Shown: in pieces, positions 17,972 through 31,133 of the stretch
Numbering within the stretch: position 1 is the stretch's first letter
Layout of the letters: each line of letters opens with the position of its first letter
Assembly (NCBI GenBank): GCA_016124655.1
Contig: WGNI01000011.1
Location: 64,196-128,195, forward strand
Direction: 5' to 3'
From: Alphaproteobacteria bacterium
GTDB lineage: Bacteria; Pseudomonadota; Alphaproteobacteria; Caulobacterales; Aquidulcibacteraceae
DNA length: 64,000 bases
The notes under the pieces: model-generated
Seen by the model: the letters and a program-made list of their open reading frames with translations, nothing else
Databases searched by the model: none
What the model was told of the DNA's origin: nothing
Program-made: the position numbers and the translations under genes

Positions 17972-18395
17972 GACCCAAACCGCATCTACGCCGCGCAGTG
18001 ACCAGACACTAAACAAATGCGCAGTTTGTGGCAATGATATGAGCGCATATGCCATGGCCTGAGACCTGAAAACGCCTCCAAGAATGAGTAGAGACCGTGA
18101 GACGATAGCTGGATTTCAACCGCGGCTGGTGGAGAAACCGGGGTCGCGTCAAAATCCTTCAAATCTCTGGCGTTCCGCCTCACATCGGCGCCGCAGACTG
18201 GTCCTGAAACTCACTTTGCGGAGCGACTGAGCTATTGCCGGAAATCGGGGTGTCGAACCCCGGAGCTGGCCGTGCCCTTCAAGCCTCTGGCGGGGTTTCG
18301 AGACGGCAAAAGCCTAGTGGCGGAGAGTGAAGGACAAGGTCCAAACTCGGAGCCACGCGCGCAGGGTTGGTGTGGCGGCTGCTCGCAGGCGAGGA

Positions 18396-18409
18396 TGGCG
18401 GAGAGGGAG
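18396..18409. repeat. attL-like direct repeat (TGGCGGAGAGGGAG) identical to the last 14 nt of the tRNA-Ser gene at 25691-25704
   Basis: This is an exact 14-bp match to the tRNA 3' end. A second degenerate copy (tggcggagagtgaagga) lies at 18318-18334. It marks the left boundary of the lower-GC island. Confidence 0.6.
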
Positions 18410-18541
18410 TCCGACGACAGCCCTTATTTTTCAAGGGTTGCGAGGTGATGACGACTGCGTACCCACGTCGCAACCCACGTTAACTGCGCCTTCCCGTCGC
18501 CGTTTGCCAGCGCGCGCCGATGACTCGCAACTAAATGGTAA

Positions 18542-18982
18542 GTGAGGCTTGCTACCAAAGGCTGTGGCGACGCGGGGGAGCCGACAGTGTTTTGGCGCAG
18601 TGTGATTCCAGCGATCCTGCTGGTTGCGACAGCAACGGGCGCTGCGGCGTTACCTGCAACTACTTTGTCTTGTGCAGGAACCGTCTCTGTTCGCGGATAT
18701 CAAGACCTTCCCTACGCTGGTGTGGTTGTGACCGTCGAAGAGGATGCGGTCGTTATTGAGAACCTGCCGAGCCTAAGTGGCACATGGCCCATTTTCCGAG
18801 CAACAGACCATCTGATCACAGTCTTGTCGGCCACGACGAGCGGCGGCCAAGTTCAAGCCAGCTTCAACAGGTTAAGCGGCGACATGTGGATTATGGCGTC
18901 GAACTCGCCCGTGGGCCGCCTCCCCACCAGAGAAGAGATGCGATTCTCTGGACGATGCGCCCGAGCGGAACGGATTTTCTGA
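18542..18982 (+). CDS. Hypothetical secreted protein (island cargo)
   Basis: It has a signal-peptide-like segment (WRSVIPAILLVATATGAAALPA) and no recognisable domain. The start is uncertain, with a GTG near 18587 possible. Confidence 0.35.
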   Translation: MRLATKGCGDAGEPTVFWRSVIPAILLVATATGAAALPATTLSCAGTVSVRGYQDLPYAGVVVTVEEDAVVIENLPSLSGTWPIFRATDHLITVLSATTSGGQVQASFNRLSGDMWIMASNSPVGRLPTREEMRFSGRCARAERIF

Positions 18983-19030
18983 ACCCTCAAGATCGTCCCG
19001 CTTGCCAGGCAGGCATGTAATGGTCGTCGG

Positions 19031-19417
19031 TCAGAACATAGGCCCGGTGCATTGCCCGTTTAGCATCTGACCGTGGCATGTCGGATGATATGCGCGCTGC
19101 TCAACTATGGTTCCGTGGCACTGCCCGTTCACGATGGCACCTACGCACTCGTCAGGGCTGTAAACCGTCGTCGAGTTTTGAACGGCAACCGCACCGGGAC
19201 GCATTGTTTCCGACTGCGCCTGCGCGGAACGATGTTCGCCAGCAGAAAACGCGCAGGCTTCGCGTACTGCGCTAAATATGAGGAGCGCGCTTTGACAGGC
19301 ACCGCCCTGCGAGCGTGCCGTCTCCTTCCCAGGGGCGGGAGAACTCGTCGAAGCGCAGGAAGCAAGACTCAGCGCTGCCAAGCTCGTAACTAAAATACAA
19401 ACGCTTGACCTACGCAT
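19031..19417 (-). CDS. Hypothetical Cys-rich lipoprotein (island cargo)
   Basis: It has a signal peptide with a lipobox (LSLASC) and a repeated NGQC(H/T)G motif. It sits in lower-GC DNA. The internal ATG at 19417 is preferred. Confidence 0.45.
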   Translation of the reverse strand: MRRSSVCILVTSLAALSLASCASTSSPAPGKETARSQGGACQSALLIFSAVREACAFSAGEHRSAQAQSETMRPGAVAVQNSTTVYSPDECVGAIVNGQCHGTIVEQRAYHPTCHGQMLNGQCTGPMF

Positions 19418-19886
19418 GTGGTTCGCCCGGTTCTTATGGATTCGATCCAACGGTGGTGTACGGCAAAGGTGTTAAATTCTCGCCCAAGTTGAAGGTGTAG
19501 ATTTCGTTTTCGCGTCTTGGCTGCGCAGCGAGGCGTAATTGTGGGGGCTTTGGGAGAGGTCCGAAAAATTGATACATATTTGGCGAGCCCGGTAGATCAG
19601 GGAAAAGCGACCTGGAATATAACCATCCCCCCGGTACCCTCGACCGATTTTTGCCACGCTCATAAAATTCCTGATCGCTTTCGCGTTGCCGAGTCCAGGC
19701 AGCGCCGTTCGGCTGCGTGGAAAGGGGAGGCAGCGGACAACGGGGCGAACCGCACGCAGCGCCACCCTATGCCGTTCAACGCGAACGTTCACAGAGCGAC
19801 GAACTTTCTTTCGTACAACACAGCTCGCGCAGATCGTGGGTTAAGCCGTGGGTTGGACACTGAGGCGGCAGCGCGGGCCTTATAGA

Positions 19887-20390
19887 TCAAGGCTTGATGG
19901 CGGACGCCTGATCCGACGACGGATACGTTACGTCGTTAAACTCAGCGTCGATGGCCTCGTTGGCAAACTCCACCGGACGGCCCGCCTTTAAATCTTCAAG
20001 CGCTTCGAGCAGCGCCTCGGCGCTATTGTCGATAACGGCGACTGCACTCCGCGAAACGGTCACGATGCCAGCTTTTTCCAAAAGCTCCTTGGCCGCCGCG
20101 AGGCGCACGCTTTCATTGCGCGCATTTCGAGCGAGGGCGAGGATCGTGTCGAACGCGACGTTGGTGGCGGACACGAAGCGCTTCTGCACTTCCTCTTTCA
20201 ACACCTTCTGAATGCGGTCAGACCCAAGCAGGATCGCGGCGGAGCGTTTGGCGTCTTCATCGGACGTGGCGAGGCCCGCGCGCTTCGCCGCCTCAGGACC
20301 GTCTTCGGGACGGCCGCCAAGCTCCAAGTAGTGCGCGAGGAATTGCGACTGCGCCGGGTTCAGATTGGCGATGGTAAGCGAGCGAGACAT
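19887..20390 (-). CDS. terS: Phage terminase small subunit (TerS, Terminase_2-like)
   Basis: The N-terminus (LTIANLNPAQSQFLAHYLELGG...AAKRAGLATSDEDAKRSAAILLGSDRIQKVLKEE) fits the Terminase_2 small-subunit pattern (LT.kQe.F..eYl..gN...AA..AGYS...A...g..LL.n..I...I). Confidence 0.6.
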   Translation of the reverse strand: MSRSLTIANLNPAQSQFLAHYLELGGRPEDGPEAAKRAGLATSDEDAKRSAAILLGSDRIQKVLKEEVQKRFVSATNVAFDTILALARNARNESVRLAAAKELLEKAGIVTVSRSAVAVIDNSAEALLEALEDLKAGRPVEFANEAIDAEFNDVTYPSSDQASAIKP

Positions 20391-20618
20391 GGCGAAGGCG
20401 ATCAGCGGTTAGAGCGAGACAGAATTTTTCACGGACACGGAGCGTGCGGCGCGCACGCCCAGCGGTGCAGGCGCATGGAGGCAGGAGCAAGCGACCAAAC
20501 ACTGGCGGGCGCGGCGTCTTATAACCTTTCGGGGAGGTGTATTACGGCCGGTCTGAAATGTGCTGCGGGCGCGCGCTTCCAGCGCCGCAAGCACATAGGG
20601 GGTATGGGGGTTGAGACT

Positions 20619-20712
20619 ACCCCCTGGTTTTTCCCCGGTTTTGGGCATTTTGGCTCCGGTTTTGGGCAGGGTTTTGGGCAGGGTTTTTCCCCGGTTTTTC
20701 CCCGGTTTTGGC
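20619..20712. repeat. Iteron-like tandem repeat array (GGTTTTGGGCA / GGTTTTTCCCC units at about 11-bp spacing), a putative replication origin
   Basis: At least seven helically phased GGTTTT-containing repeats lie immediately downstream of the primase-helicase gene 3' end, in the position where PICI and SaPI origins are found. Confidence 0.55.
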
Positions 20713-20734
20713 CTTATAACCTGGGCAAACAGCA

Positions 20735-22738
20735 TTAGCTCGGCCCTCCGGTTTGATGGGTTTCTCCGGTTTTCTTCGCGCGCCGCGCCAGCTCTTTCGC
20801 CATCGTTTCGTCGCTCGGATAGTAGCCAGCGCTCATGCGTTTATCGCCGCGCACGTAGCGCAACTGTCCTGCGTCCAGCGCAGCGCGAAGCTCCTCTTTG
20901 ACCGCCTTCGACGTGAGCTTTTTCGCCAGCTCTTTTTCAAGCTGATTCAGAACGGGGCCGTCAATGTTGCGCTGGACGGTGAACGGCAGCCCCAACTCAG
21001 CGGCTTGCGTGGCGGCGCGCACGACAGCTTCGCGCATCGCGGTGGCGTCCTGCGCGGCCGTGGGCACAACCGCAGTGGGGATCAGCGCGCCTCTGTAAAA
21101 GCGCAGCTTGATCGGCTCGCCCTTGCGACCGTGGTTGCGCTTTTCGACGGTCAGAACGAACTCATCTTCCTTGTTCTCGTTCGCCTCGATCTTTAAGCGG
21201 GAGCGCGCGGCGTTGCGCCAGGCAACCGACCAACCGTCCATTTCACCGCGACTGCTCCCAGCCTGCGACGGATGCCACGGCATTATGATGGTGCAGTCGC
21301 CTTTATCGCATATGCCTTGAAGAACGACCTTGATAAACAGGTTCACGCTGTCTTCGTCGATTTTTCCGTGACCTTTAAAGCGAACAAAGTCGTAAGCGCT
21401 GTCGAGCACCAAGACTTTATGGCCGGGGATGCTTTGCAAGAGCGAAAGCAGCTCGTGATAAAACGGCCGCAACGTGCAGTCCGCGCTCTCGCCCATGATC
21501 GCCAACGCGCTGTCTTTGCCCTTGCGAGCGAGGAACACGCCTCCCGCGTAGGGAGTGTCAGGCGTAGGCTTGGAGGGCGGCGGCAGCTCCAACACGTCGG
21601 CGATGGCCTGCGCACGGCGCGCAAGTTCATTTTCGTCGTCTTCGGCGCTCACATACACCATCGTCGCCTGCGCCGGAGGCGGATCGCACTTGATGCCGAA
21701 CGGAGGCGCGCCGACGTTCAGCGCCATCGCCCATTGCTGCGCAAGACGGCTTTTGTGGTTTCCACCCGGCGCACAAAGGAACGTGACAATGCCTTTCTCC
21801 AAGAGCCCGGTAATAAGCTCCTGCACCGGATGAACCTTGCGCCCCAGCATGTCGAACGCGGAAATCGTGTCACCCGGCTCAGAATGCGGACGCTCGCCCA
21901 GCGCCGGGGTGGAGAGGATCAAATCGCAAAGCGCATCCGCGCCATAAGAAACGAGGAAATCGTCAGCGCCGACTTTGTGCGGCTTCCCTTTCGCATCGAC
22001 CTGATTAGAAGGCGGGATGCGAACGCAATGAACGCGCGCGCCCTGCAACGCCAGCAGCGTCGCAAGACGTTGTTCAGCGCGCTCCACATTGGAGTTGGTA
22101 GCGATGTCGCTGTCGAAGAGGATGCAAACGTCAGTAAACTGCGCCACCACCGTAGCGAGATCGGGATGCAGCGCGTGCGAGGCGGACTTGCTCTCGCGCA
22201 CATTGTCCACGCCACCGATGGCGACACACGGAATGCCGACCTTGCAGAGCGCAGCCGCTTTCTTCTCGCCCTCTACAACGCATACAGCGCCTTCGGGCAA
22301 AATCGACGGCGCAAGGGCTCGCGGGAAGTAGATTTGCGAACCGCTTCCACGCGGCGCGTCGTATTTGCGCCCATCCTTGGGCAGCGATTTGCCGAGAACC
22401 GGAAGGTAGCGAGGACGCACATAGGGCACGCCAACGCCGGTCAGATCGTAGCTAAGCGGCGCTCCATCCATACGAAGATAAGGGATGATGATGGCCGGAT
22501 GCTGTGCGAAATCGGGATGAACAGTGCTGGCGTCGTCCACCAAATACATCCCGTTCGCCTGCGCATCTGCAAGCGTGAGCCCGCTACGCGCCAAGTCATT
22601 CTTGGCAAGCGCCAGCGTCACGCCGCTGCATTCGCCGTCATTGGCGGACGCACGGAGGCGCGTGACGTTGATGTTCGACGGGTTGTCCGCCATATTGGTT
22701 TCCGTCATCGCGTAAGTGATCCGTGTCTTTCGGCGCAT
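20735..22738 (-). CDS. Primase-helicase (toprim/DUF3854-like N-terminal domain plus AAA_25/RepA-like P-loop NTPase)
   Basis: It has a toprim-like segment (VVEGEKKAAALCKVGIPCVAIGGVDN), a P-loop with a deviant Walker A (LCAPGGNHKS), and a Walker B (VLVLDSAYDF). It is 667 aa, the typical size of P4-alpha and PICI Pri-Rep proteins. Confidence 0.6.
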   Translation of the reverse strand: MRRKTRITYAMTETNMADNPSNINVTRLRASANDGECSGVTLALAKNDLARSGLTLADAQANGMYLVDDASTVHPDFAQHPAIIIPYLRMDGAPLSYDLTGVGVPYVRPRYLPVLGKSLPKDGRKYDAPRGSGSQIYFPRALAPSILPEGAVCVVEGEKKAAALCKVGIPCVAIGGVDNVRESKSASHALHPDLATVVAQFTDVCILFDSDIATNSNVERAEQRLATLLALQGARVHCVRIPPSNQVDAKGKPHKVGADDFLVSYGADALCDLILSTPALGERPHSEPGDTISAFDMLGRKVHPVQELITGLLEKGIVTFLCAPGGNHKSRLAQQWAMALNVGAPPFGIKCDPPPAQATMVYVSAEDDENELARRAQAIADVLELPPPSKPTPDTPYAGGVFLARKGKDSALAIMGESADCTLRPFYHELLSLLQSIPGHKVLVLDSAYDFVRFKGHGKIDEDSVNLFIKVVLQGICDKGDCTIIMPWHPSQAGSSRGEMDGWSVAWRNAARSRLKIEANENKEDEFVLTVEKRNHGRKGEPIKLRFYRGALIPTAVVPTAAQDATAMREAVVRAATQAAELGLPFTVQRNIDGPVLNQLEKELAKKLTSKAVKEELRAALDAGQLRYVRGDKRMSAGYYPSDETMAKELARRAKKTGETHQTGGPS

Positions 22739-22773
22739 CCAGAAGCCCGCCGCGCCAACGGTGGGTTGTTGTT

Positions 22774-23229
22774 TTAGAGACGATACCCGGCCGCTGGGTC
22801 AGGACGCCTTTGCGGGAGATTGATGTAAGCGTTCGGGGTGCCGCGCCCGTTGTGCATTGCGCGCCTCACGCGCAACCCCAAATGAAGCGCGGCGGCGATA
22901 AGCATTCCATTGGCGACGTAGCTGTTGCCTTGGTAGGTCGCGGCAAACCAGCGTTCGACTTCATGCTTGTAGCCGTAAGACGTAGCGTGACGGTTCAGCG
23001 AGGCCGTGGGCTTCATTAAGCTCAACCACGCGATGGCTTTCTCGAACTCTTGGCACGAACTTTCCGTAAGCGCATCGGCGCGCATCGCCGCCAGATCGTC
23101 CGAAGGCCGAAATTTCCCGAAGCCGTATGAACTCAGCTCGGGCTCGCGTTCCAAGATCGCCGCGACCTCCGCGCGAACGTCTTCAACAGGGCGATACTCA
23201 AATACGGGGAGTTGGGAACGGCTGTTCAT
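22774..23229 (-). CDS. Hypothetical protein (island)
   Basis: 151 aa with no recognisable domain. Its start codon overlaps the alpA stop (ATGA), implying translational coupling. Confidence 0.4.
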   Translation of the reverse strand: MNSRSQLPVFEYRPVEDVRAEVAAILEREPELSSYGFGKFRPSDDLAAMRADALTESSCQEFEKAIAWLSLMKPTASLNRHATSYGYKHEVERWFAATYQGNSYVANGMLIAAALHLGLRVRRAMHNGRGTPNAYINLPQRRPDPAAGYRL

Positions 23230-23447
23230 TAGGCGGCTCCCTTCACCTGCGTCCGAGGGAGAGAAGCAAACCAGCGCTCGGCGCTTTCACGCGTGATGCG
23301 CGTGGCCGCACCAATTTTGACGCGCTCAACAGCGCCGGTTTTCATCAGCTCGTAGGCTTTGGTGTGTCGAACTCCGTAGAGAGCGCAAAACTCCTCCACG
23401 GTGTAGGCCAACGGTTGTTTGGCAAGGCTCAGCATCGTGTTCTCCAA
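23229..23447 (-). CDS. alpA: AlpA-family excisionase / transcriptional regulator (HTH)
   Basis: It is 72 aa with HTH sequence (YTVEEFCALYGVRHTKAYELMKTGAVERVKIGAATRITRESAERW), typical of AlpA/Xis proteins of P4-like and PICI elements. Confidence 0.65.
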   Translation of the reverse strand: MENTMLSLAKQPLAYTVEEFCALYGVRHTKAYELMKTGAVERVKIGAATRITRESAERWFASLPRTQVKGAA

Positions 23448-23544
23448 GATCGCTAGCGGGTTCGCCTAGCTTCGGGGGAACACATGCGGCTTTGCGCGAA
23501 TGCGATCCATGAAACGAACGCCTTCGCTTCAAGGAATCGTTCGT

Positions 23545-24303
23545 TCACATGCCTTTGAGCCAACCTTTGACGGTGCGCGGATCGCGGCCGTACTCCGACG
23601 CGCGCAGCTCCGCAAAGCTGCTTACGGTCAGATGGCGGTTCGTCCCTTGGGAAATCTTAAAGTCCGCGCGCGCTTGATCTCGCAGGCTCTGCTTCCGGCG
23701 CGCAGCACCACTCTTGGCACCTGCGGCTTTACTTCTAGATTTCCCTTCCAGGCGCTCCCCGGCCAAGTTAAAGACGCCGAGAGTCACCTGTTGGAACGTG
23801 GCCTCCGCCGTGGAGAGTGCGTAGAGCGCAGCGTCGCGCCGCCCCATCCATTCATTGTAGGTTTCGGGCCTCCACGTTTGCTGTTCACGATCGACCGTCA
23901 GAAAAACGGCGAGCGCGCCTAGCACATCGGACGCGGCCATGATTTCGGGCGGCGCGTCTAAACCCTGGTCCAAATGAAAACGGCGGGCATCATCCGCGAT
24001 GCGCGAGAGAGCTTCTAAATCGCCACCCCGCGCTAGGCCAACGAGCTTCTTGCGCGGCGCATATCCTTCTTCCAGCAACGCCGAGAGAGCCGCATCGAAT
24101 GCCGCTCGGTGCGCTTGCTGCACGGCCTGCGCGGCAGCGGGCAGCGAGGACAGGCGCTCTTGCACCGAACCGCTTAGAAACGTCGGGCTCTGTGCCGAGG
24201 CGCGTGCAATGTTTTTACGCTGCGTGTCGGCGTCACCCTCGAAAATGTCGTCAAAGGTCACGCGCTGCGCTCCCTGACTTTGCTGGCGCAGAACGCCGAC
24301 CAA
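23545..24303 (-). CDS. Hypothetical protein (island), possibly regulatory
   Basis: 252 aa with no clear domain. The track ORF overlaps the integrase 3' end, and a GTG at about 24261 would place its start immediately after the int stop codon. Confidence 0.35.
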   Translation of the reverse strand: MVGVLRQQSQGAQRVTFDDIFEGDADTQRKNIARASAQSPTFLSGSVQERLSSLPAAAQAVQQAHRAAFDAALSALLEEGYAPRKKLVGLARGGDLEALSRIADDARRFHLDQGLDAPPEIMAASDVLGALAVFLTVDREQQTWRPETYNEWMGRRDAALYALSTAEATFQQVTLGVFNLAGERLEGKSRSKAAGAKSGAARRKQSLRDQARADFKISQGTNRHLTVSSFAELRASEYGRDPRTVKGWLKGM

Positions 24304-25502
24304 GCGTCCATGAGCGCGCGACGCTTCTGGAACAAATCGCCGCGTCGGTAGGCCGCTTCAACCTTGTCACCGACAACGTGAGCCAACGCCGCCTCAGCCA
24401 CTTCGCGCGGGAAATTGGTCTTTTCCGCAGCCCAGTCGCGGAATGTGGAGCGGAAACCGTGAACCGTTTCGGCGCGCTGCATCCGGCGCAGAAGCACGGC
24501 CATCGTCGCCTGCGAGATCATTGCACCTTTGCGCATGTCGCTCGGAAAGATCAAATCGGAAGGCTCAGGATTGCCCGCCGCGTCATGGCGTTGTTTCAAC
24601 ACTGCAAGCGCAGCCTTAGAGAGTGGAACGCGATGCGTCCGGCCACCTTTCATGCGCTCAGCCGCGACGGTCCACAGCGCATTCTTGAAATCAATCTCAC
24701 CCCACGTCGCGCCAGCGGCCTCGCCGTACCGCGCCGCCGTAAGGATCAAAAACCGCAGACAGTCGGCACCAGCGCCGGTGCGATGCGAGAGCGCATCATA
24801 CAGCGCAGGCATTTGGTCGATGGGCACGGCACGATGATGCTGGACCGGCGCGAGTTTCGCACGGGAGGGAAGCGCCTTCTGCAAATGTCCACGCCACCGC
24901 GCAGGGTTGTCGCCGGTGCGATGGCCGCGCACCGCAGCCCAATCCAAAATCGTTTCGATGCGCCCGCGCAGGCGTGACGCCGTTTCCGTCTTGGTCGTCC
25001 AGATCGGATCGAGCACCCGCATAACCAAATCTTGGCTCACGTCGGCGACCGGAACGCCGCCCATGACCGGATAAGCGTAGGTAACGAGCGTGCTGCGCCA
25101 TTGCGCGCGGTGCTTGTCATTGCGCCAAGAGCCTTCATGCGCCGCGATGTAGGCTTCCGCGCACTCTTTAAACGTGAGCTGCGGCGTGCGTTCGGCTTTC
25201 GCCTCCTTCCGCGCCTTTCGGCGGGAGTCGATGGGGTCAGTGCCCGCCTTGGCGAGTTTGCGCTGAGCGAGGGCAGCGTCGCGCGCGTCGCCAAGTTCGA
25301 CCAGATCGGCGGAGCCAAGGCCCATTTCACGGCGGCGGCCATCGGCGGCGGTGTAGCGCACGATCCAAGACCGGCGCACGGCTCCGCCACGACCGATAGC
25401 CACCTGCAAGAACAGGCCGCCTCCGTCCGCATAAAGGCCGGGAGCCTTGGCCGCCGCTACCGCGCGGGCGGTTAGTTTATGGACGCCTCTCGCCATGCCC
25501 AA
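24258..25502 (-). CDS. int: Tyrosine-type site-specific integrase (P4-type, with DUF4102 N-terminal arm-binding domain)
   Basis: The catalytic R...HxxR...Y residues are present (HGFRSTFRDWA, AAYRRGD). It lies directly beside the 3' end of tRNA-Ser. Confidence 0.85.
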   Translation of the reverse strand: MGMARGVHKLTARAVAAAKAPGLYADGGGLFLQVAIGRGGAVRRSWIVRYTAADGRRREMGLGSADLVELGDARDAALAQRKLAKAGTDPIDSRRKARKEAKAERTPQLTFKECAEAYIAAHEGSWRNDKHRAQWRSTLVTYAYPVMGGVPVADVSQDLVMRVLDPIWTTKTETASRLRGRIETILDWAAVRGHRTGDNPARWRGHLQKALPSRAKLAPVQHHRAVPIDQMPALYDALSHRTGAGADCLRFLILTAARYGEAAGATWGEIDFKNALWTVAAERMKGGRTHRVPLSKAALAVLKQRHDAAGNPEPSDLIFPSDMRKGAMISQATMAVLLRRMQRAETVHGFRSTFRDWAAEKTNFPREVAEAALAHVVGDKVEAAYRRGDLFQKRRALMDAWSAFCASKVRERSA

Positions 25503-25690
25503 ACGCTGTGCAAAACCCTCGCCAAACTGCGAACCGGGATTCTAACTCACCGCCTCCACCCACGAATTTGGGGTGACTTGCGACGAAGTTCAGCGATCCG
25601 CTGCGAAGGAATATAGCGTAGGAAAACCTTGTTTTACAGAGGTTTGATAAGGATTTTCCGAAGGGCTACGAAGTGGAACGAATGCGGAAC

Positions 25691-25780
25691 TGGCGGAGAG
25701 GGAGGGATTCGAACCCTCGATACCCGTGAAGGTATTCCGGTTTTCGAGACCGGCGCGATCGACCACTCCGCCACCTCTCC
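25691..25780 (-). tRNA. tRNA-Ser (anticodon CGA), type II with a long variable arm
   Basis: A minus-strand cloverleaf (GGAGAGGTGGCGGAGTGG...CTCGAAA...GGGTTCGAATCCCTCCCTCTCCGCCA). The anticodon loop CUCGAAA gives anticodon CGA. The 3' end encodes CCA. Confidence 0.8.
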
Positions 25781-25846: not shown

Positions 25847-28800
25847 CTAGGCGGCGCGGCGTGCGGCGAAGCGACCGCCATCGAGGGCGACCACCCGGCC
25901 ATACTTGGCCAGCGTGGTCAGCACCTCGGCAATGCGCTTTTGGCGCGCCTCGCTGGTCTTGCCCTTGAAGAGGCGCGCCAGGGCCGCCGCGTCGAGCGGC
26001 TGGCCGTGCGCGGCCAACGCAGCCTCGATGGCGAGCGGCTGCTCGTAGCGATCCTTCGGAAACGCGGGCAGCGCGGCCGTGAGTGGTTCTTCGGCCTCGG
26101 CGAAATCTAGATCGCCGGTTCGCGGCGCAGGCGCCGTCTTGGCGAAGCGCGGGATCTGATACTCCGGCCGCAGCCAGCGAACAAAGCCTTGGGCTTCTTC
26201 CCTGGCGGGCTCGGTATTGAGCGCGACGAGGCGTTCAAGAATTTGTTCGTCGCTGAGATCGGCGGGCCAGCCATAGGCTTCCGCGGTCGCCGCATCGATC
26301 TGATTGTGCAAGTCCTTCAGCACCAGCACGAGCCCGCGCGTCTTCACGTCCTCTTCCGCTGCGCTGAGCGTCGCGCCCGCTTTGACCTTTTCCAGTACGT
26401 TGTAGAGGCCTGTCAGCGTGAGATCGGAATGTTCGGCCTGCACGCGCTTGCGCGTGGCGTCGAGTTCTTCGCCAAGCGCGCGCAGCTTGGCTTTGAGCGG
26501 CTCCGGCGGATCGGGGAAGGGGAAGGGATCGAAGCAGGTTGTTTTGACATAGACCGGCCTGTCCTCGAGCAATCCGCCGACATGAGATGTCCAGGCAAGG
26601 TGTGGCTTCGACGAGAGAATAGCTAAGTGTGCTCCGTCTCCGTTCGCGATCACAATGAGCTTGTTGTCCGGAACGATTTCCGCTTCGAGAAACTGAAATG
26701 TGCGGTGTTTCGAAGTTTCGATCGTCGCGATGTAGCGCGGCAATCCTTCAAGGGCAGGACGCAGGTCCCGCCGTGGCTCGCCAAAGACCCACCAATTGGT
26801 TTTGTAGCTCTCGCGATTGTTTTGATCGCGCTCCGGCTTCACCCGCGCGAGGACGTGTTGATACACTTCCGGAAATCGCTGGCGCGCTCCTCCGCGCTCA
26901 ACCCGAAAAGATCGATCACCATAACATCGCGCGAATGGCCAGTGAGATCGCGGCCGTTGCGATAGGGGCGGATGTGGCGCTCAAGCCCGGCGCGATTGCC
27001 CAAGCCCAGAAGCGCCGCTTCCGCAGGCGTCACGATGAAGCCGGCTCCCATCAATTGAACGCCCCGAGAGCAAAGGCCGCGACCCGCGTTCAACGGTTGC
27101 GTACTCGTCAGGTCGATTCCAACACTCAAATCCGCATTGATGCGCCCCATCGAAAGCTTGAAGTCAATTTTCGGCTCATCCGTATCGATGTCGCGTTCGG
27201 AGACCGCCTCCATCAGCCGCCCGAATGTCGGTTCCGCCTGCGCGACGCTCATGGCGATGCGCACGGCGGCGCTGTCTTTGGTCGCCTTGGTCCAGGGTTG
27301 ATCCGGAATCGCGAACACCAGGCAGAGCGGATTCTTGGCGGCGAGGTGGCGCTCGATCACGCGGCGCTGAAACACCTGGCTGATCGAATTGGTGGTGACG
27401 AGCCCGAACCGGCGCAACGCGGTTTGGTCGCGGCGCAAAACGTCCGCCGCGCGATCCCACCAATACATCACGTAATCGGCGCTCTCATTCATGTGCGGAT
27501 GCGCGGCCCACAGCGCTTCGGCATAGCCGGGCTCACTGCGCGAGCGAATATCCTTGCCGCCGATAAACGGCGGATTGCCGACGATGAACTCGGCTTCCGG
27601 CCAGGCGGGGCGGCGGGGATTGGGGTAGTGCTCGGTGCGAACTGCTCCCCCGTTCACGGGGGAGCTGTCAGGCTGCGAAGCAGGCTGACTGAGGGGGCTC
27701 GCCTGCTCACTCCCCCCTCCGGTCGCTGCGCGACCACCGCCCCCGTGAACGGGGGAGGAGTTGGTCTGCACCGCCGGCACAGGAAACCCATCCCAGGTCA
27801 ACACGGCGTCATAGCCCTCGCGCTTGCCGAAATTGATGTTCTCGAACGCGCGCAGGATCGGCTCTTCGGGATGCGCCGTCGTATTGCGATAGTGCCATTG
27901 CAGATAGCCGATCCACACCACGAGTTCAGCGATGGCGGCGGCGCGCGGATTCAGCTCAAGGCCCAGAAATAAATGCGGGTCGACCGTGAGGTTCTTGAGC
28001 GCAAGCAGGCCTTGTTCGTCGCCCAGCTTGGTCAGCGTCTCCAGCACTTCGCCTTCGAGCTGCTTCATCAGTTCGAGCGCGACGTAAAGAAAATTGCCCG
28101 TGCCGCAAGCCGGATCGAGCACGCGCGTGTGCGTCAGCTGATCGTGGAACGCGCGGACGATGGCGATCGCCTTGCCGTCTTCTCCTTCGTCCTTGGCGAT
28201 TTCCGCCTTGGTCAACGCCGCTTCCCAATCGGCCCGCAACGGCTCCATGACGGTGACTTCGACGAGGCGTTGCACATAGGCGCGCGGCGTGTAGTGAGCG
28301 CCCAGTTTCTTGCGTTCCGCTGGATCCAGCGCTTGCTCCAACAGCGTGCCGAAGATAGCCGGGTCGACTTCCCGCCAGTCGGCCTTCGCCGCGCGAAGCA
28401 AGACGCCGATCTCTTCCTTTTTCAGTTGAAAGGCCGTGGTGTTCTTGAAGAGGCCGCCATTGAAGTGCCGCACGCGCGCTTCAATCACATGGCTGAACTC
28501 GACGCCCTTTTCCATGTCGCTCCAGAGCTGCTTCAAGCGCAGGGTGAACGTCTCGGGATTGTCGACGCACTTTCGAAGCAGGTCACGAAAACTCTCTTTC
28601 GGCAAAAGCCCAGTGTCTTCCGCGAACATCGTGAAGAGGCACCGCATCAGGAAATGCGCGACATCTTCCGCGTGATTTCCGCGGTCTTCCAGCGCCTTGC
28701 TGACCTCCGCCAGATATCCTGCGATCTCTCGCGTAACGCGGACCGCTTTCTTCGCCGGATCGAGACCATGTGGATCCGTCCAGATCGCTTTAAGGAGGTC

Positions 28801-29358
28801 GCGCGTTCTTTCGTTGCGTAAGTCTTCCAGAAAGAGTCGATATCCATTGCGATCGGGAAACTGCGTGTAGGCGCGCCCTGTGCCGGTGAAGTCGGCGTAC
28901 AATTCGAAACAATGCCCAACATCGCAGACGATGATGAAAGGCGGCGCCGTGTGGTTGGAGTCGAGCAGGAAGACGTAGCCTTCCGCCTGCTTGCGCGCAT
29001 TGCGCATCATGACGTCCCAGCCGCGTTGCGCTGTGCGCTCGCCCTGCGGCGATTCATTGAACAGCGCCATTTGGCCGGGGAGGGCGTTCTTGCTGCCCGG
29101 GAGGCGGGATTGTTTGGCCTCGAGGATGAAGCAGTTGCGCTTATAGATGTCGATGCGCTTGGGGTTGGTCGCGTCGGCGCTTTCGCGCGGCCTTACAGGG
29201 CGTTCGAAGGTATAGTCTCCCCCGTCGCCGCCGACCGCCGCATCGGGGCGGTCGACCGCGATCACATCGCAGAGTTCGTACAGGAAACCGACATAGTTCG
29301 CCCGCTCGGCGCCATGGCTCGATTTCCACTTGGCGATGAATGTCTCGATATCCGTCAC
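25847..29358 (-). pseudogene. MmeI-family type IIL restriction-modification enzyme (N-terminal PD-ExK nuclease plus gamma-class N6-adenine methyltransferase plus TRD), split by a frameshift near 26860-26875
   Basis: The 839-aa and 339-aa ORFs overlap at 26839-26866 in different frames, and together they align colinearly with MmeI. Shared motifs are D...EAK, AHYTP, DPACGTGNFL (motif I), NPPF (motif IV), and the C-terminal FDPFPFP...GLYN. Confidence 0.65.
27645..27758. repeat. In-frame 114-bp palindromic insertion inside the RM gene
   Basis: Two hairpin-forming units (ctcccccgttcacgggggag and cccccgtgaacgggggag) in inverted orientation flank further palindromes. The segment encodes a low-complexity peptide (SSPVHGGGGRAATGGG...SSPVNGG) just before the NPPF motif. 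Confidence 0.5.
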
Positions 29359-30984: not shown

Positions 30985-31058
30985 GGTGATGTAGCTCAAT
31001 GGTAGAGCGTCCGGCACGCGCCGGAAGGTAGAGGGTTCGATACCCTTCATCTCCTCCA
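30985..31058 (+). tRNA. tRNA-like gene with a non-canonical anticodon arm; identity unresolved (tRNA-Gly(CCC)-like D and T arms)
   Basis: It has a GTAGCTCAATGGTAGAGC D-arm, a GAGGGTTCGATACCCTT T-arm, and a CCA end. The anticodon stem TCCGG/CCGGA encloses only a 6-nt loop (CACGCG), and the acceptor stem has one T-T mismatch. Confidence 0.45.
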
Positions 31059-31133
31059 AACGACTAGCTCAGGTGGGTAGAGCACAAGACTGCTAATCTT
31101 GCTGTCGGAGGTTCGATTCCTCTGTCGTTGACC
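31059..31133 (+). tRNA. tRNA-like gene with class I (short variable arm) structure but a Ser-type anticodon loop CUGCUAA (anticodon GCU)
   Basis: It has a TAGCTCAGGTGGGTAGAGC D-arm, anticodon stem CAAGA/TCTTG, T-arm GGAGGTTCGATTCCTCT, and acceptor 3' strand GTCGTTG-A-CC with no encoded terminal A. Its 5' end abuts the previous tRNA, so nt 31058 would have to be shared. Confidence 0.45.

What the first reader, a model, noticed from the sequence alone, without database searches (positions are those of the whole stretch)
19887..20390. Stand-alone terminase small subunit without a large subunit or capsid genes
A TerS-like protein is encoded in an island that has no TerL, portal, or capsid genes. 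A TerS encoded by a satellite is a known route for redirecting a helper phage's TerL to package satellite DNA. This predicts a cognate pac site within or near the gene.
Basis: partly seen in the sequence, partly recalled or inferred. Interest (0 to 1): 0.6.

Follow-up and report, generated by a model that had tools for sequence, protein, structure and literature searches.

The report
Small-terminase gene on a phage satellite
The gene does encode a phage-type small terminase, and it sits in a 7.3-kb island next to a tRNA gene that has the standard layout of a phage satellite (a PICI-like element that borrows a helper phage's capsids), so this is a new example of a known strategy in a little-studied group of bacteria.

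Summary

The gene lies in a 7.3-kb island (18396-25704) bounded by a 14-nt repeat of the tRNA-Ser 3' end. The island reads: integrase, an integrase-overlapping ORF, an AlpA-like HTH, an unknown ORF, a primase-helicase, phased repeats, TerS, small cargo. I found no large terminase (TerL), portal or capsid gene in the island. The large window ORFs I scanned are housekeeping or restriction genes.

At least a dozen metagenomic loci share this layout. Distant TerS relatives in viral contigs sit directly upstream of TerL.

This meets four of the five PICI core components (Type B). It also resembles PICMIs plus a TerS, and marine VEIMEs.

A near-invariant dyad 170-200 bp upstream of terS tracks the TerS clade rather than the replicase. 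It is a candidate pac site. Packaging, helper phage and pac are all untested.

The parts
18396..18409 (.). Distal att repeat (TGGCGGAGAGGGAG), a copy of the last 14 nt of tRNA-Ser. It marks the island end far from the integrase.
   Evidence: Exact 14-nt direct repeat with 25691-25704 (D13). A fuzzy search finds no other copy in the window. The expected number of chance copies of one given 14-mer in 10 kb is about 4e-5 (own arithmetic).
18542..18982 (+). Cargo ORF, 146 aa, with an N-terminus that looks like a signal peptide by eye. No family assigned. It is uncertain whether it is expressed.
   Evidence: ORF list. No Pfam, PHROG or NCBIfam hit. Absent from all related loci.
19031..19450 (-). 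Cargo ORF, 139 aa, with a lipoprotein-like N-terminus (LASC lipobox, judged by eye). No family assigned.
   Evidence: No hits. Absent from related loci.
19538..19665 (-). Second conserved non-coding block, downstream of terS. It contains GGGTACCGGGGGG. It is shared only with L005 and L002, and its function is unknown.
   Evidence: blastn at 73-76% identity. The alignment has frame-breaking indels. No Rfam match.
19887..20390 (-). terS: small terminase subunit homologue, 167 aa. It has an N-terminal SF6-type HTH (about residues 10-57), a helical hairpin core (58-106) and an acidic C-terminal tail with the motif IDAEFxDV.
20559..20595 (-). Near-invariant imperfect dyad (TGTGCTTGCGGCGCT-GGAAGC-GCGCGCCCGCAGCACA). 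Candidate pac or TerS site. It could instead be a priming hairpin of the origin or a helper-responsive operator.
   Evidence: Mean pairwise identity is 0.82, against 0.46 and 0.39 for the flanks. It has 16 pairs, 97.9% of cells paired, 3 pairs with compensatory changes, and 0 of 500 shuffles reach the score. The DNA fold has z -2.9. It tracks the TerS clade, not the primase-helicase.
20598..20610 (-). C-rich box CCCCCATACCCCC directly upstream of the dyad. Variants of it are present in all loci that have the DUF3854+AAA_25 replicase.
   Evidence: One-nucleotide indels among relatives show that it is non-coding.
20622..20714 (-). Array of about 8 repeats of 11 bp with phased A-tracts (CCGGGGAAAAA / CCCAAAA), just 3' of the primase-helicase gene. 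Probable replication origin iterons.
   Evidence: Similar AAACCGG arrays sit at the same place in L001, L002, L005, L007, L009, L012, L028, L031 and L032. They are absent where the replicase is of another type (L008, L015).
20735..22738 (-). Primase-helicase, 667 aa: a DUF3854 (Toprim-like) primase domain fused to an AAA_25 RepA/DnaB-like ATPase.
   Evidence: Pfam 3e-18 and 4e-20. PHROG primase families. About 30% identity to annotated phage primases.
22774..23229 (-). Unknown 151-aa protein. Its start overlaps the stop codon of the HTH gene.
   Evidence: Only a weak hit to phrog_9576. 56% identical in L001.
23229..23447 (-). AlpA/excisionase-type HTH regulator, 72 aa.
   Evidence: Pfam HTH_17 at 31.4 bits, above the cut-off of 27. 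phrog_66 'excisionase and transcriptional regulator' at 2e-6. TIGR01764 weak.
23545..24261 (-). Integrase-overlapping ORF of unknown function. The GTG at 24261 overlaps the integrase stop codon by 4 nt. Positional analogue of PICMI iolg.
   Evidence: The same 4-nt overlap is called in L008, L009, L012 and L015. iolg is described in PMC10803314. Homology to iolg was not tested.
24258..25502 (-). Tyrosine integrase of the P4 type (arm-binding, central and catalytic domains).
   Evidence: Pfam Arm-DNA-bind_3, Phage_int_M and Phage_integrase. phrog_1 at 5e-49.
25691..25780 (-). tRNA-Ser(CGA), the integration target. Its last 14 nt (25691-25704) form the integrase-proximal att repeat.
   Evidence: ARAGORN. 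Rfam tRNA at 62.5 bits. The island-side att sequence 25659-25716 is 88-90% identical at the ends of L008 and L015 and is also present in L001.

Best explanation
The gene encodes a functional small terminase carried by a 7.3-kb integrative phage satellite of the PICI kind, inserted at tRNA-Ser(CGA).

Proposed life cycle (inferred):
1. A helper phage infects or is induced, and the AlpA-like regulator switches the island on.
2. The integrase, probably with the overlapping ORF and/or the HTH protein, excises the island.
3. The primase-helicase fires the origin just 3' of its gene and produces concatemers.
4. The satellite TerS binds a site on the island DNA through its N-terminal SF6-type HTH. The best candidate is the C-box plus dyad at 20559-20610.
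5. Through its core and acidic C-terminal tail, TerS recruits the helper's large terminase.
6. Island DNA is then packaged into helper capsids.

No capsid-size remodelling gene was recognised. Packaging as multimers in full-size heads, as in PICMIs and VEIMEs, is therefore the more likely mode.

Shown here: TerS homology and fold, island boundaries, gene content, conservation of the layout, and conservation and covariation of the cis elements.

Inferred: induction, replication, the TerS-TerL interaction, the identity of pac, and packaging itself.
For: TerS identity.

Model: an HTH followed by a helical hairpin, as in known TerS.

Purifying selection.

Island ends at the tRNA 3' end with a 14-nt repeat. 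The att flank is shared with L001, L008 and L015.

Gene content is int, an integrase-overlapping ORF, HTH_17, an unknown ORF, primase-helicase and TerS, with no structural genes.

The same order occurs in L001, L008, L009/L010, L012-L014, L015 and L032. The primase-TerS pair is also next to each other in L005, L006, L007, L028, L029 and L031.

Modules are mosaic, and defence genes (restriction-modification, GmrSD, TIR, SduA) lie just downstream of terS in relatives, as reported for satellites. Whether they lie inside those islands was not checked.

Distant relatives in viral contigs lie directly upstream of TerL.

The layout matches the published PICI model at 4 of 5 core components with no forbidden genes (PMC10085698). 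It also matches the described role of satellite TerS (PMC6092414).

Candidate pac: the dyad is far more conserved than its flanks or than terS synonymous sites, shows compensatory changes, and follows the TerS clade rather than the replicase.
Against: - No helper phage is identified.
- No phage in INPHARED or IMG/VR carries a close relative of this TerS clade, and the island's dyad is absent from IMG/VR. There is therefore no evidence that the element is ever inside virions.
- The window protein alone falls below Pfam's Terminase_2 cut-off.
- The viral-contig relatives next to TerL share only the core hairpin and lack the HTH.
- The dyad-TerS covariation rests on about 12 loci and is confounded by physical linkage. 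The same element could belong to the origin: it is absent where the replicase type differs (L008, L015).
- No embedded pac signal was seen inside terS.
Confidence: 0.62

Rival explanations
1. The TerS homologue mainly acts as an interference or defence factor, or as a DNA-binding regulator. It would bind or titrate the incoming phage's TerL, or bind DNA to control island genes. Island transfer would then not depend on TerS-directed packaging. The element could spread by generalised transduction, natural competence or other routes.
For: - Satellite packaging proteins are also known to inhibit helper packaging (title and abstract of 10.1101/2024.04.22.590561, listed).
- Relatives have anti-phage defence genes right after terS.
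- No close phage TerS partner was found.
Against: - The whole protein, including the oligomerisation hairpin and C-terminal tail, is conserved as in packaging TerS.
- terS keeps a fixed position after the replication module and origin, as in PICIs.
- Interference and packaging redirection are not mutually exclusive in known satellites.
Confidence: 0.15
2. The island is an integrative, self-replicating plasmid-like element that does not depend on phages. The TerS-like protein would have been recruited for another DNA transaction, for example as an origin or partition accessory factor.
For: - The element has its own primase-helicase and iterons.
- The iteron, GC-rich box and hairpin order recalls IncQ-type origins (from memory, not tested).
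- There is no evidence of encapsidation.
Against: - No relaxase, oriT, partition or conjugation gene is present in the island.
- The primase-helicase has no tblastn match at E <= 1e-10 in 72,556 plasmids. Its N-domain does match phage primases.
- The TerS family otherwise sits next to TerL in viral contigs.
Confidence: 0.1
3. The island is a decayed prophage remnant, and terS is a leftover that no longer serves any function.
For: The element is small and lacks every structural gene. The cargo region (18410-19886) has only doubtful ORFs.
Against: - The same compact gene order recurs in many independent loci at 40-80% protein identity, with different integration sites (tRNA-Ser, tRNA-Pro and others).
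- terS is under purifying selection.
- The att repeats and all core ORFs are intact.
Confidence: 0.05

Closest known systems
PICIs (phage-inducible chromosomal islands), Type B in the sense of SatelliteFinder. These include the SaPIs and Gram-negative PICIs such as PmCI172.
   Same: - The order is integrase, AlpA-type regulator, primase-replicase, origin with iterons 3' of the replicase, then terS, then accessory genes.
- There are no tail, lysis, portal or TerL genes.
- Integration is site-specific with att repeats.
- Size is close to the published median (7.3 kb here, 9.5 kb median).
- Modules are mosaic.
(PMC10085698; PMC6092414.)
   Different: - No capsid-morphogenesis gene was recognised.
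- The replicase is a DUF3854+AAA_25 fusion.
- The host is an uncultured alphaproteobacterium, with relatives in Hyphomonadaceae MAGs.
- Induction and packaging are unproven.
- The TerS clade has no close phage counterpart in the collections searched.
PICMIs (phage-inducible chromosomal minimalist islands of Vibrionaceae)
   Same: - Very small size (about 6 kb for PICMIs).
- The order is int, an ORF overlapping int by 4 nt, alpA, then a primase.
- No capsid-remodelling genes, so packaging as concatemers in full-size heads is the natural expectation.
(PMC10803314.)
   Different: - PICMIs have no terS and integrate next to fis. This island has terS and integrates into tRNA-Ser.
- Sequence homology of the overlapping ORF to iolg was not tested.
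VEIMEs (virion-encapsidated integrative mobile elements) of marine bacterioplankton, especially the Alphaproteobacteria-associated modules, some of which carry small terminases
   Same: They are small integrative elements with tyrosine integrase, AlpA, primase/helicase and, in some, a TerS homologue. They are reported from Pelagibacter and other Alphaproteobacteria (PMC9618062).
   Different: VEIMEs are defined by being recovered as concatemers from virus particles. No such evidence exists for this island, and I could not compare it with the VEIME sequences.
Phage small terminases of the Terminase_2 / SF6-SPP1 G1P type, and PaP3 and NV1 TerS
   Same: - A helical hairpin core carries the conserved VRLAAAKELL motif.
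- Profile matches reach E 7e-19.

   Different: - It is not adjacent to a TerL.
- It falls below the Pfam gathering score on its own.
- Ring stoichiometry and DNA specificity are unknown.

Membership tests
Terminase small subunit, Terminase_2 (PF03592) superfamily | Significant sequence match to the family model | tested here: inconclusive
   The single sequence scores 18.8 bits, below the cut-off of 26.1 (E 0.0027). Homology is nevertheless established transitively. 35 of 42 sampled relatives, drawn from the 150 best hits of the family profile (listed E <= 2.3e-12), hit PF03592 at E <= 0.001 (best 2e-15). Profiles hit solved TerS at 2.9e-6 and 7.4e-19.
Terminase small subunit, Terminase_2 (PF03592) superfamily | N-terminal HTH DNA-binding domain followed by a helical oligomerisation core | tested here: met
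   [not shown]
Terminase small subunit, Terminase_2 (PF03592) superfamily | Encoded next to a large terminase in a head-packaging module | tested here: not met
   No TerL was found in the island or among the window ORFs scanned. This is the point of the finding and is typical of satellite TerS. Distant relatives in viral contigs do sit directly upstream of TerL.
Terminase small subunit, Terminase_2 (PF03592) superfamily | Forms a ring oligomer, binds pac or cos DNA and stimulates TerL | not testable with these tools
   This needs biochemistry or multimer modelling.
PICI (SatelliteFinder model, PMC10085698) | Integrase | tested here: met
   ORF 24258-25502. Pfam Arm-DNA-bind_3, Phage_int_M and Phage_integrase. 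phrog_1 at 5e-49.
PICI (SatelliteFinder model, PMC10085698) | Regulation module (alpA, merR or stl homologue) | tested here: met
   ORF 23229-23447. HTH_17 at 31.4 bits, above the cut-off of 27. phrog_66 'excisionase and transcriptional regulator'. The equivalent gene in L032 hits Phage_AlpA.
PICI (SatelliteFinder model, PMC10085698) | Primase-replicase module followed by an origin | tested here: met
   DUF3854+AAA_25 protein at 20735-22738, with PHROG primase hits. An 11-bp repeat array lies directly 3' of it. Origin function itself is inferred.
PICI (SatelliteFinder model, PMC10085698) | Capsid morphogenesis (size-redirection) gene | tested here: not met
   None of the unknown ORFs (252, 151, 139 and 146 aa) hits any such family in Pfam, PHROGs or NCBIfam. 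Type B PICIs, including SaPIs, also lack this marker.
PICI (SatelliteFinder model, PMC10085698) | Small terminase subunit | tested here: met
   See the TerS rows above.
PICI (SatelliteFinder model, PMC10085698) | No tail, holin, portal or connector genes ('forbidden' components) | tested here: met
   All island ORFs were scanned and none was found. tblastn with TerL, portal and capsid queries was negative. SatelliteFinder itself was not run.
PICI (SatelliteFinder model, PMC10085698) | Induced by, and packaged in the capsids of, a helper phage | not testable with these tools
   No helper is known. There is no match in IMG/VR or INPHARED.
PICMI | No terS; integration next to fis; Vibrionaceae host | tested here: not met
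   terS is present. Integration is at tRNA-Ser. The host is an alphaproteobacterial MAG. The definition comes from PMC10803314.
P4-like satellites | Psu, Delta, Sid and Epsilon hijacking genes | tested here: not met
   No island ORF hits these families. Only int, the AlpA-like gene and the primase functions are shared.
cfPICI | Own capsid, portal, adaptor/connector and TerL genes | tested here: not met
   These are absent.
VEIME | Recovered as a concatemer from virus particles | not testable with these tools
   The definition comes from PMC9618062. No virion data are available for this element.

The most novel reading that the evidence does not exclude
The family may not parasitise a conventional phage at all. 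It may instead parasitise a gene transfer agent (GTA), which is common in Alphaproteobacteria. GTA small terminases lack a sequence-specific DNA-binding domain and package DNA at random (PMC7947584). An island-encoded TerS with a specific HTH and its own recognition site could impose sequence-specific packaging of the 7.3-kb island on a GTA's large terminase. From memory, 7.3 kb is near the head capacity reported for some GTAs. Nothing here tests this. It is only not excluded, because no helper phage or close phage TerS was found.
Probability: 0.04. Interest if true: 0.85.

Novelty: new member of a known kind. Interest (0 to 1): 0.35.

Why it matters
Experimentally studied phage satellites come mostly from a few pathogens and from Vibrio. 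This island and its relatives, in Hyphomonadaceae and other alphaproteobacterial or environmental MAGs, extend the same strategy: integrase, AlpA, replicase, origin and TerS, with no structural genes. They do so in uncultured environmental Alphaproteobacteria and in a very compact form.

The relatives have restriction and other anti-phage genes directly after terS. The family may therefore move defence systems between such bacteria.

The two separable cis elements give direct targets for experiments on origin and pac specificity. One is the variable iteron array next to the replicase. The other is the near-invariant dyad that follows the TerS clade.

The concept itself, a satellite TerS hijacking the helper's TerL, is established.

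Tried and rejected
- Close phage partners. tblastn of TerS against 50,697 phage records found nothing. A scan of IMG/VR with the close-family pattern gave 248 pattern hits, none a relative. A broader alignment found only distant core-only relatives.
- Alignments too diverse to seed scans. Searches failed and were replaced by narrower alignments.
- Dyad as a search key. IMG/VR gave 0 hits. The nine hits in JGI metagenome contigs were chance matches inside GC-rich coding DNA with no island genes.
- pac inside terS. A synonymous-site scan over nine relatives showed no block of suppressed variation (range 0.34-0.61, mean 0.49).
- The 108-aa ORF 20409-20735, which gene callers annotate in relatives. 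I rejected it as a protein. The translations are poorly conserved, they read the conserved DNA in different frames, and the C-box has 1-nt indels.
- Replicase homologues on plasmids, sought in order to test the origin reading without terS. None were found.
- Known RNA families in the island. Only the tRNA matched. The promoter and terminator scans were at chance level.
- Strict covariation between iterons and the replicase C-terminus. L002 is a counter-example: 39% identity but similar iterons. I therefore claim only that the iteron array is variable and associated with this replicase type.
Full report
THE OBSERVATION

The identical protein is on record as a hypothetical protein of an Alphaproteobacteria MAG. 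A word-indexed search of 5.8 billion clusters found 25 further homologues, several from Hyphomonadaceae MAGs, and two of the more distant ones carry a precomputed Terminase_2 hit. All close homologues start MSRSL, and invariant positions are spread along the protein.

In a codon alignment of nine relatives that are 68-81% identical in protein, only 49% of codons at identical residues are the same. The reading frame is therefore under purifying selection and is not a chance ORF of GC-rich DNA.

IS IT A SMALL TERMINASE?

On its own the protein is marginal:
- Pfam Terminase_2: E 0.0027, 18.8 bits, gathering score 26.1.
- NCBIfam: nothing.
- PHROG 2538 'terminase small subunit': E 1.6e-7.

Profiles settle the question:
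- An HMM of 18 close homologues hits the phage PaP3 small terminase (6w7t) at E 2.9e-6 and NV1 TerS at 2e-3.
- The same profile, run against 1.84 billion cluster representatives without a word filter, finds 1867 relatives at E <= 1e-3 and 248 at E <= 1e-10.
- Of 42 relatives sampled from the 150 best hits of that search, 35 hit Terminase_2 at E <= 0.001 (best 2e-15).
- A profile that includes those relatives hits PaP3, NV1 and SF6 TerS at 7.4e-19, 1.7e-13 and 9.2e-10.

The family has an acidic C-terminal tail with a recurrent (I/V)DAE(F/Y)xE(V/I) motif. By analogy with other TerS proteins, this may be the TerL-contact region. That reading is an inference.

THE ISLAND

tRNA-Ser(CGA) lies at 25691-25780 on the minus strand. 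Its last 14 nt, TGGCGGAGAGGGAG, recur exactly at 18396-18409 and nowhere else in the window. The element is therefore 18396-25704, about 7.3 kb.

Reading on the minus strand from the tRNA, the island contains:
- A P4-type tyrosine integrase (24258-25502; phrog_1 at 5e-49).
- An ORF of unknown function whose GTG at 24261 overlaps the integrase stop codon by 4 nt.
- A 72-aa HTH_17 / excisionase-AlpA-type regulator (23229-23447).
- A 151-aa unknown protein (22774-23229).
- A 667-aa primase-helicase with DUF3854 and AAA_25 domains (20735-22738). Its N-terminal part is about 30% identical to annotated phage primases.
- A 344-bp non-coding stretch.
- terS.
- About 1.5 kb with two doubtful small ORFs that look secreted.

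None of these ORFs matches a large terminase, portal, capsid, tail or lysis family.

Outside the island, every ORF I scanned, including the largest ones, is a housekeeping or restriction gene. Examples are rpoD, dnaG, kup, AdoHcy hydrolase, a TonB-dependent receptor, acyl-CoA ligases, a histidine kinase and an MmeI-type enzyme. tblastn with TerL, portal and capsid proteins from related viral contigs gives nothing better than E 0.08. Not every small ORF outside the island was scanned.

RELATIVES

The layout is not a one-off. Contigs encoding homologues at 38-81% identity show the same order:
- Integrase.
- An ORF of about 190-290 aa that overlaps the integrase by 4 nt.
- HTH_17 / AlpA.
- A small unknown ORF.
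- A primase-helicase.
- TerS.
- Variable genes.

The full order is seen in L001, L008, L009/L010, L012-L014, L015 and L032. The primase-TerS pair is also adjacent in L005, L006, L007, L028, L029 and L031.

Integration sites differ. tRNA-Ser and tRNA-Pro genes lie next to some of these loci. L001 has its own 14-nt att repeat, which gives an element of about 11 kb. L001, L008 and L015 share the island-side att sequence of the window.

The modules are mosaic:
- The primase-helicase and TerS travel together.
- The integrase, the overlapping ORF, the HTH gene and the 151-aa ORF are exchanged between loci.
- In L008 and L015 the replicase is replaced by DUF3854+DUF5906 or by a Prim-Pol protein, while a TerS of the same family is kept.

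The genes just downstream of terS in relatives are often defence genes: Type ISP restriction with GmrSD, a ResIII-methylase pair, and TIR with SduA. I did not check whether they lie inside those islands.

In viral contigs of 38-53 kb, distant relatives of the TerS core sit immediately upstream of a large terminase (phrog_2 and phrog_3717, E down to 8e-59). In L011, a relative that does have the HTH belongs to a head module with portal and capsid genes. Those viral proteins mostly share only the core hairpin.

No close relative of the island clade was found in 50,697 phage records or in IMG/VR.

CIS ELEMENTS NEAR terS

The 344 bp between the replicase and terS has three parts.

1. An array of about eight 11-bp repeats with phased A-tracts at 20622-20714. 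Spacing is 9-13 bp, mean 11. Seven of the window's 25 AAAACC hexamers fall here.
- Similar AAACCGG arrays lie at the same place in nearly all loci with the DUF3854+AAA_25 replicase, sometimes in inverted orientation.
- They are absent where the replicase type differs.
- Their position immediately 3' of the replicase is where PICI origins lie (PMC6092414).
- I read the array as the origin. The fit to replicase divergence is imperfect, because L002 is an exception.

2. A C-rich box at 20598-20610.

3. An imperfect dyad at 20559-20595.
- Across nine elements its mean pairwise identity is 0.82. The iteron array scores 0.46, the spacer towards terS 0.39, and synonymous sites of terS 0.49.
- Of 16 pairs, 97.9% of cells are paired and three pairs show changes on both sides. 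No shuffle out of 500 reaches the observed covariation. The sample is small and the sequences are related.
- More distant elements (L007, L009, L012) keep a C-box followed by a hairpin of different sequence.
- The dyad follows the TerS clade rather than the replicase. L006 has a replicase as diverged from the window's (54/54/41% by domain) as those of L009 and L012. Yet L006 keeps a TerS HTH that is 85% identical and the same dyad. L009 and L012 have HTH identity of 48-50% and different hairpins.

Alternatives remain: physical linkage, a helper-responsive operator, or a priming hairpin of the origin. The last recalls the ssi sites of IncQ plasmids, a comparison from memory that I did not test.

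The ORF that gene callers place over this region is not a conserved protein. No block of suppressed synonymous variation was seen inside terS.

A second conserved non-coding block lies downstream of terS at about 19538-19665. It is shared only with L005 and L002 and remains unexplained.

HOW IT MOST LIKELY WORKS

Shown here:
- A TerS-family protein with an SF6-type HTH.
- An intact site-specific island with its own replicase and repeat array.
- No structural or TerL genes.
- A conserved, mosaic family with this layout.

Inferred:
- On helper infection or induction, the AlpA-like protein activates the island.
- The integrase, with a partner protein, excises it.
- The primase-helicase replicates it from the iteron origin into concatemers.
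- TerS binds its site on island DNA and recruits the helper's TerL, so that helper capsids are filled with island DNA.
- No capsid-size remodelling gene was recognised, so multimer packaging in full-size heads is the more likely mode. This is what was shown for PICMIs (PMC10803314) and VEIMEs (PMC9618062).

I put about 0.6 on this mechanism. The rivals are:
- A mainly interfering or regulatory role for TerS (0.15).
- A phage-independent, plasmid-like element (0.1).
- A decayed prophage (0.05).

COMPARISON WITH WHAT IS KNOWN

The published PICI model has five core components: integrase, regulator, primase-replicase, capsid morphogenesis and terS. It also forbids tail, holin and portal genes. 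Elements with four of the five are Type B, and these include the experimentally proven SaPIs (PMC10085698).

This island meets four components and carries none of the forbidden ones, so it fits PICI Type B. SatelliteFinder itself was not run.

- It is not a PICMI. PICMIs have no terS and integrate at fis. The shared integrase-overlapping ORF and the small size are nevertheless notable.
- It is not P4-like, because Psu, Sid and Delta are absent.
- It is not a cfPICI, because it has no capsid, portal or TerL genes.
- It resembles the Alphaproteobacteria-associated VEIME modules, some of which carry small terminases. VEIME membership, however, is defined by recovery from virions.

The same study reports putative PICIs in Sinorhizobium, which to my knowledge is an alphaproteobacterium. 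An alphaproteobacterial host would therefore not be a first.

VERDICT

This is a new member, and part of a recognisable family, of a known kind of element.

What this analysis adds:
- The island boundaries.
- The family and its mosaic structure.
- The separation of a variable iteron array from a near-invariant dyad that tracks TerS.

Interest is moderate to low (0.35). The most novel reading not excluded is hijacking of a gene transfer agent rather than a phage. It is unsupported, and I give it about 4%.

Noticed in passing
window 25847-29358 (minus strand): An MmeI-type restriction-modification enzyme, apparently split into two ORFs (839 aa with the MmeI N, helicase-spacer and methyltransferase domains; 339 aa with the MmeI target-recognition domain). 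It lies directly on the other side of the tRNA-Ser from the island, outside the att repeats. Several relatives of the island have restriction or defence genes right after terS, so this tRNA region may be a defence hotspot.
   Followed up: partly
window 18319-18335: A degenerate second copy of the tRNA-Ser 3' end (TGGCGGAGAGTGAAGGA). It lies 77 bp outside the distal att repeat and may be the scar of an earlier integration at the same site.
   Followed up: no
window 25373-25466 and 30985-31058: ARAGORN calls a 94-nt tRNA-Ile(TAT) inside the integrase ORF and an undetermined tRNA abutting tRNA-Ser(GCT) at 31058-31133. Rfam found no tRNA at 25373-25466, so that call is probably a false positive. 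The second call was not checked.
   Followed up: partly
window 19538-19665; L005 5501-5626; L002 2572-2666: A conserved non-coding block downstream of terS. It contains GGGTACCGGGGGG, which loosely mirrors the C-box upstream of terS. Frame-breaking indels show that it is non-coding. It is present in only three of the loci, and its function is unknown.
   Followed up: partly
L012 5155-16144 and L013: Two integrase-led islands sit in tandem. The first is of the TerS family described here. The second has its own integrase and an AAA_25 protein but no TerS homologue.
   Followed up: no
L015 6619-8789; L028 9719-17029; L032 7265-14109; L029 9682-13925: Genes downstream of terS in relatives are dominated by anti-phage systems: a TIR_2 protein with a ParB-like HTH plus an SduA_C (Shedu) protein; GmrSD plus Type ISP restriction; and a ResIII helicase plus an N6/N4 methylase. 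I did not verify that they lie inside the islands.
   Followed up: partly
L011 3633-8737: In this 40.8-kb phage-like contig the TerS homologue is separated from the putative TerL by about 2.8 kb of opposite-strand genes, including a Fic-domain protein. This is an unusual arrangement for a packaging module.
   Followed up: no
protein P0076: A 3882-aa representative matches the TerS-family profile in eight separate stretches (profile positions about 77-135). It may be a repeat protein or a low-complexity artefact.
   Followed up: no
window 20409-20735 (minus strand) and the equivalent ORFs in L028, L029, L031 and L032: Gene callers annotate a 95-108-aa ORF across the iteron and dyad region, starting at the stop codon of the replicase. 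The translations are not conserved and read the conserved DNA in different frames, so it is probably a recurrent mis-annotation of a cis-acting region.
   Followed up: yes
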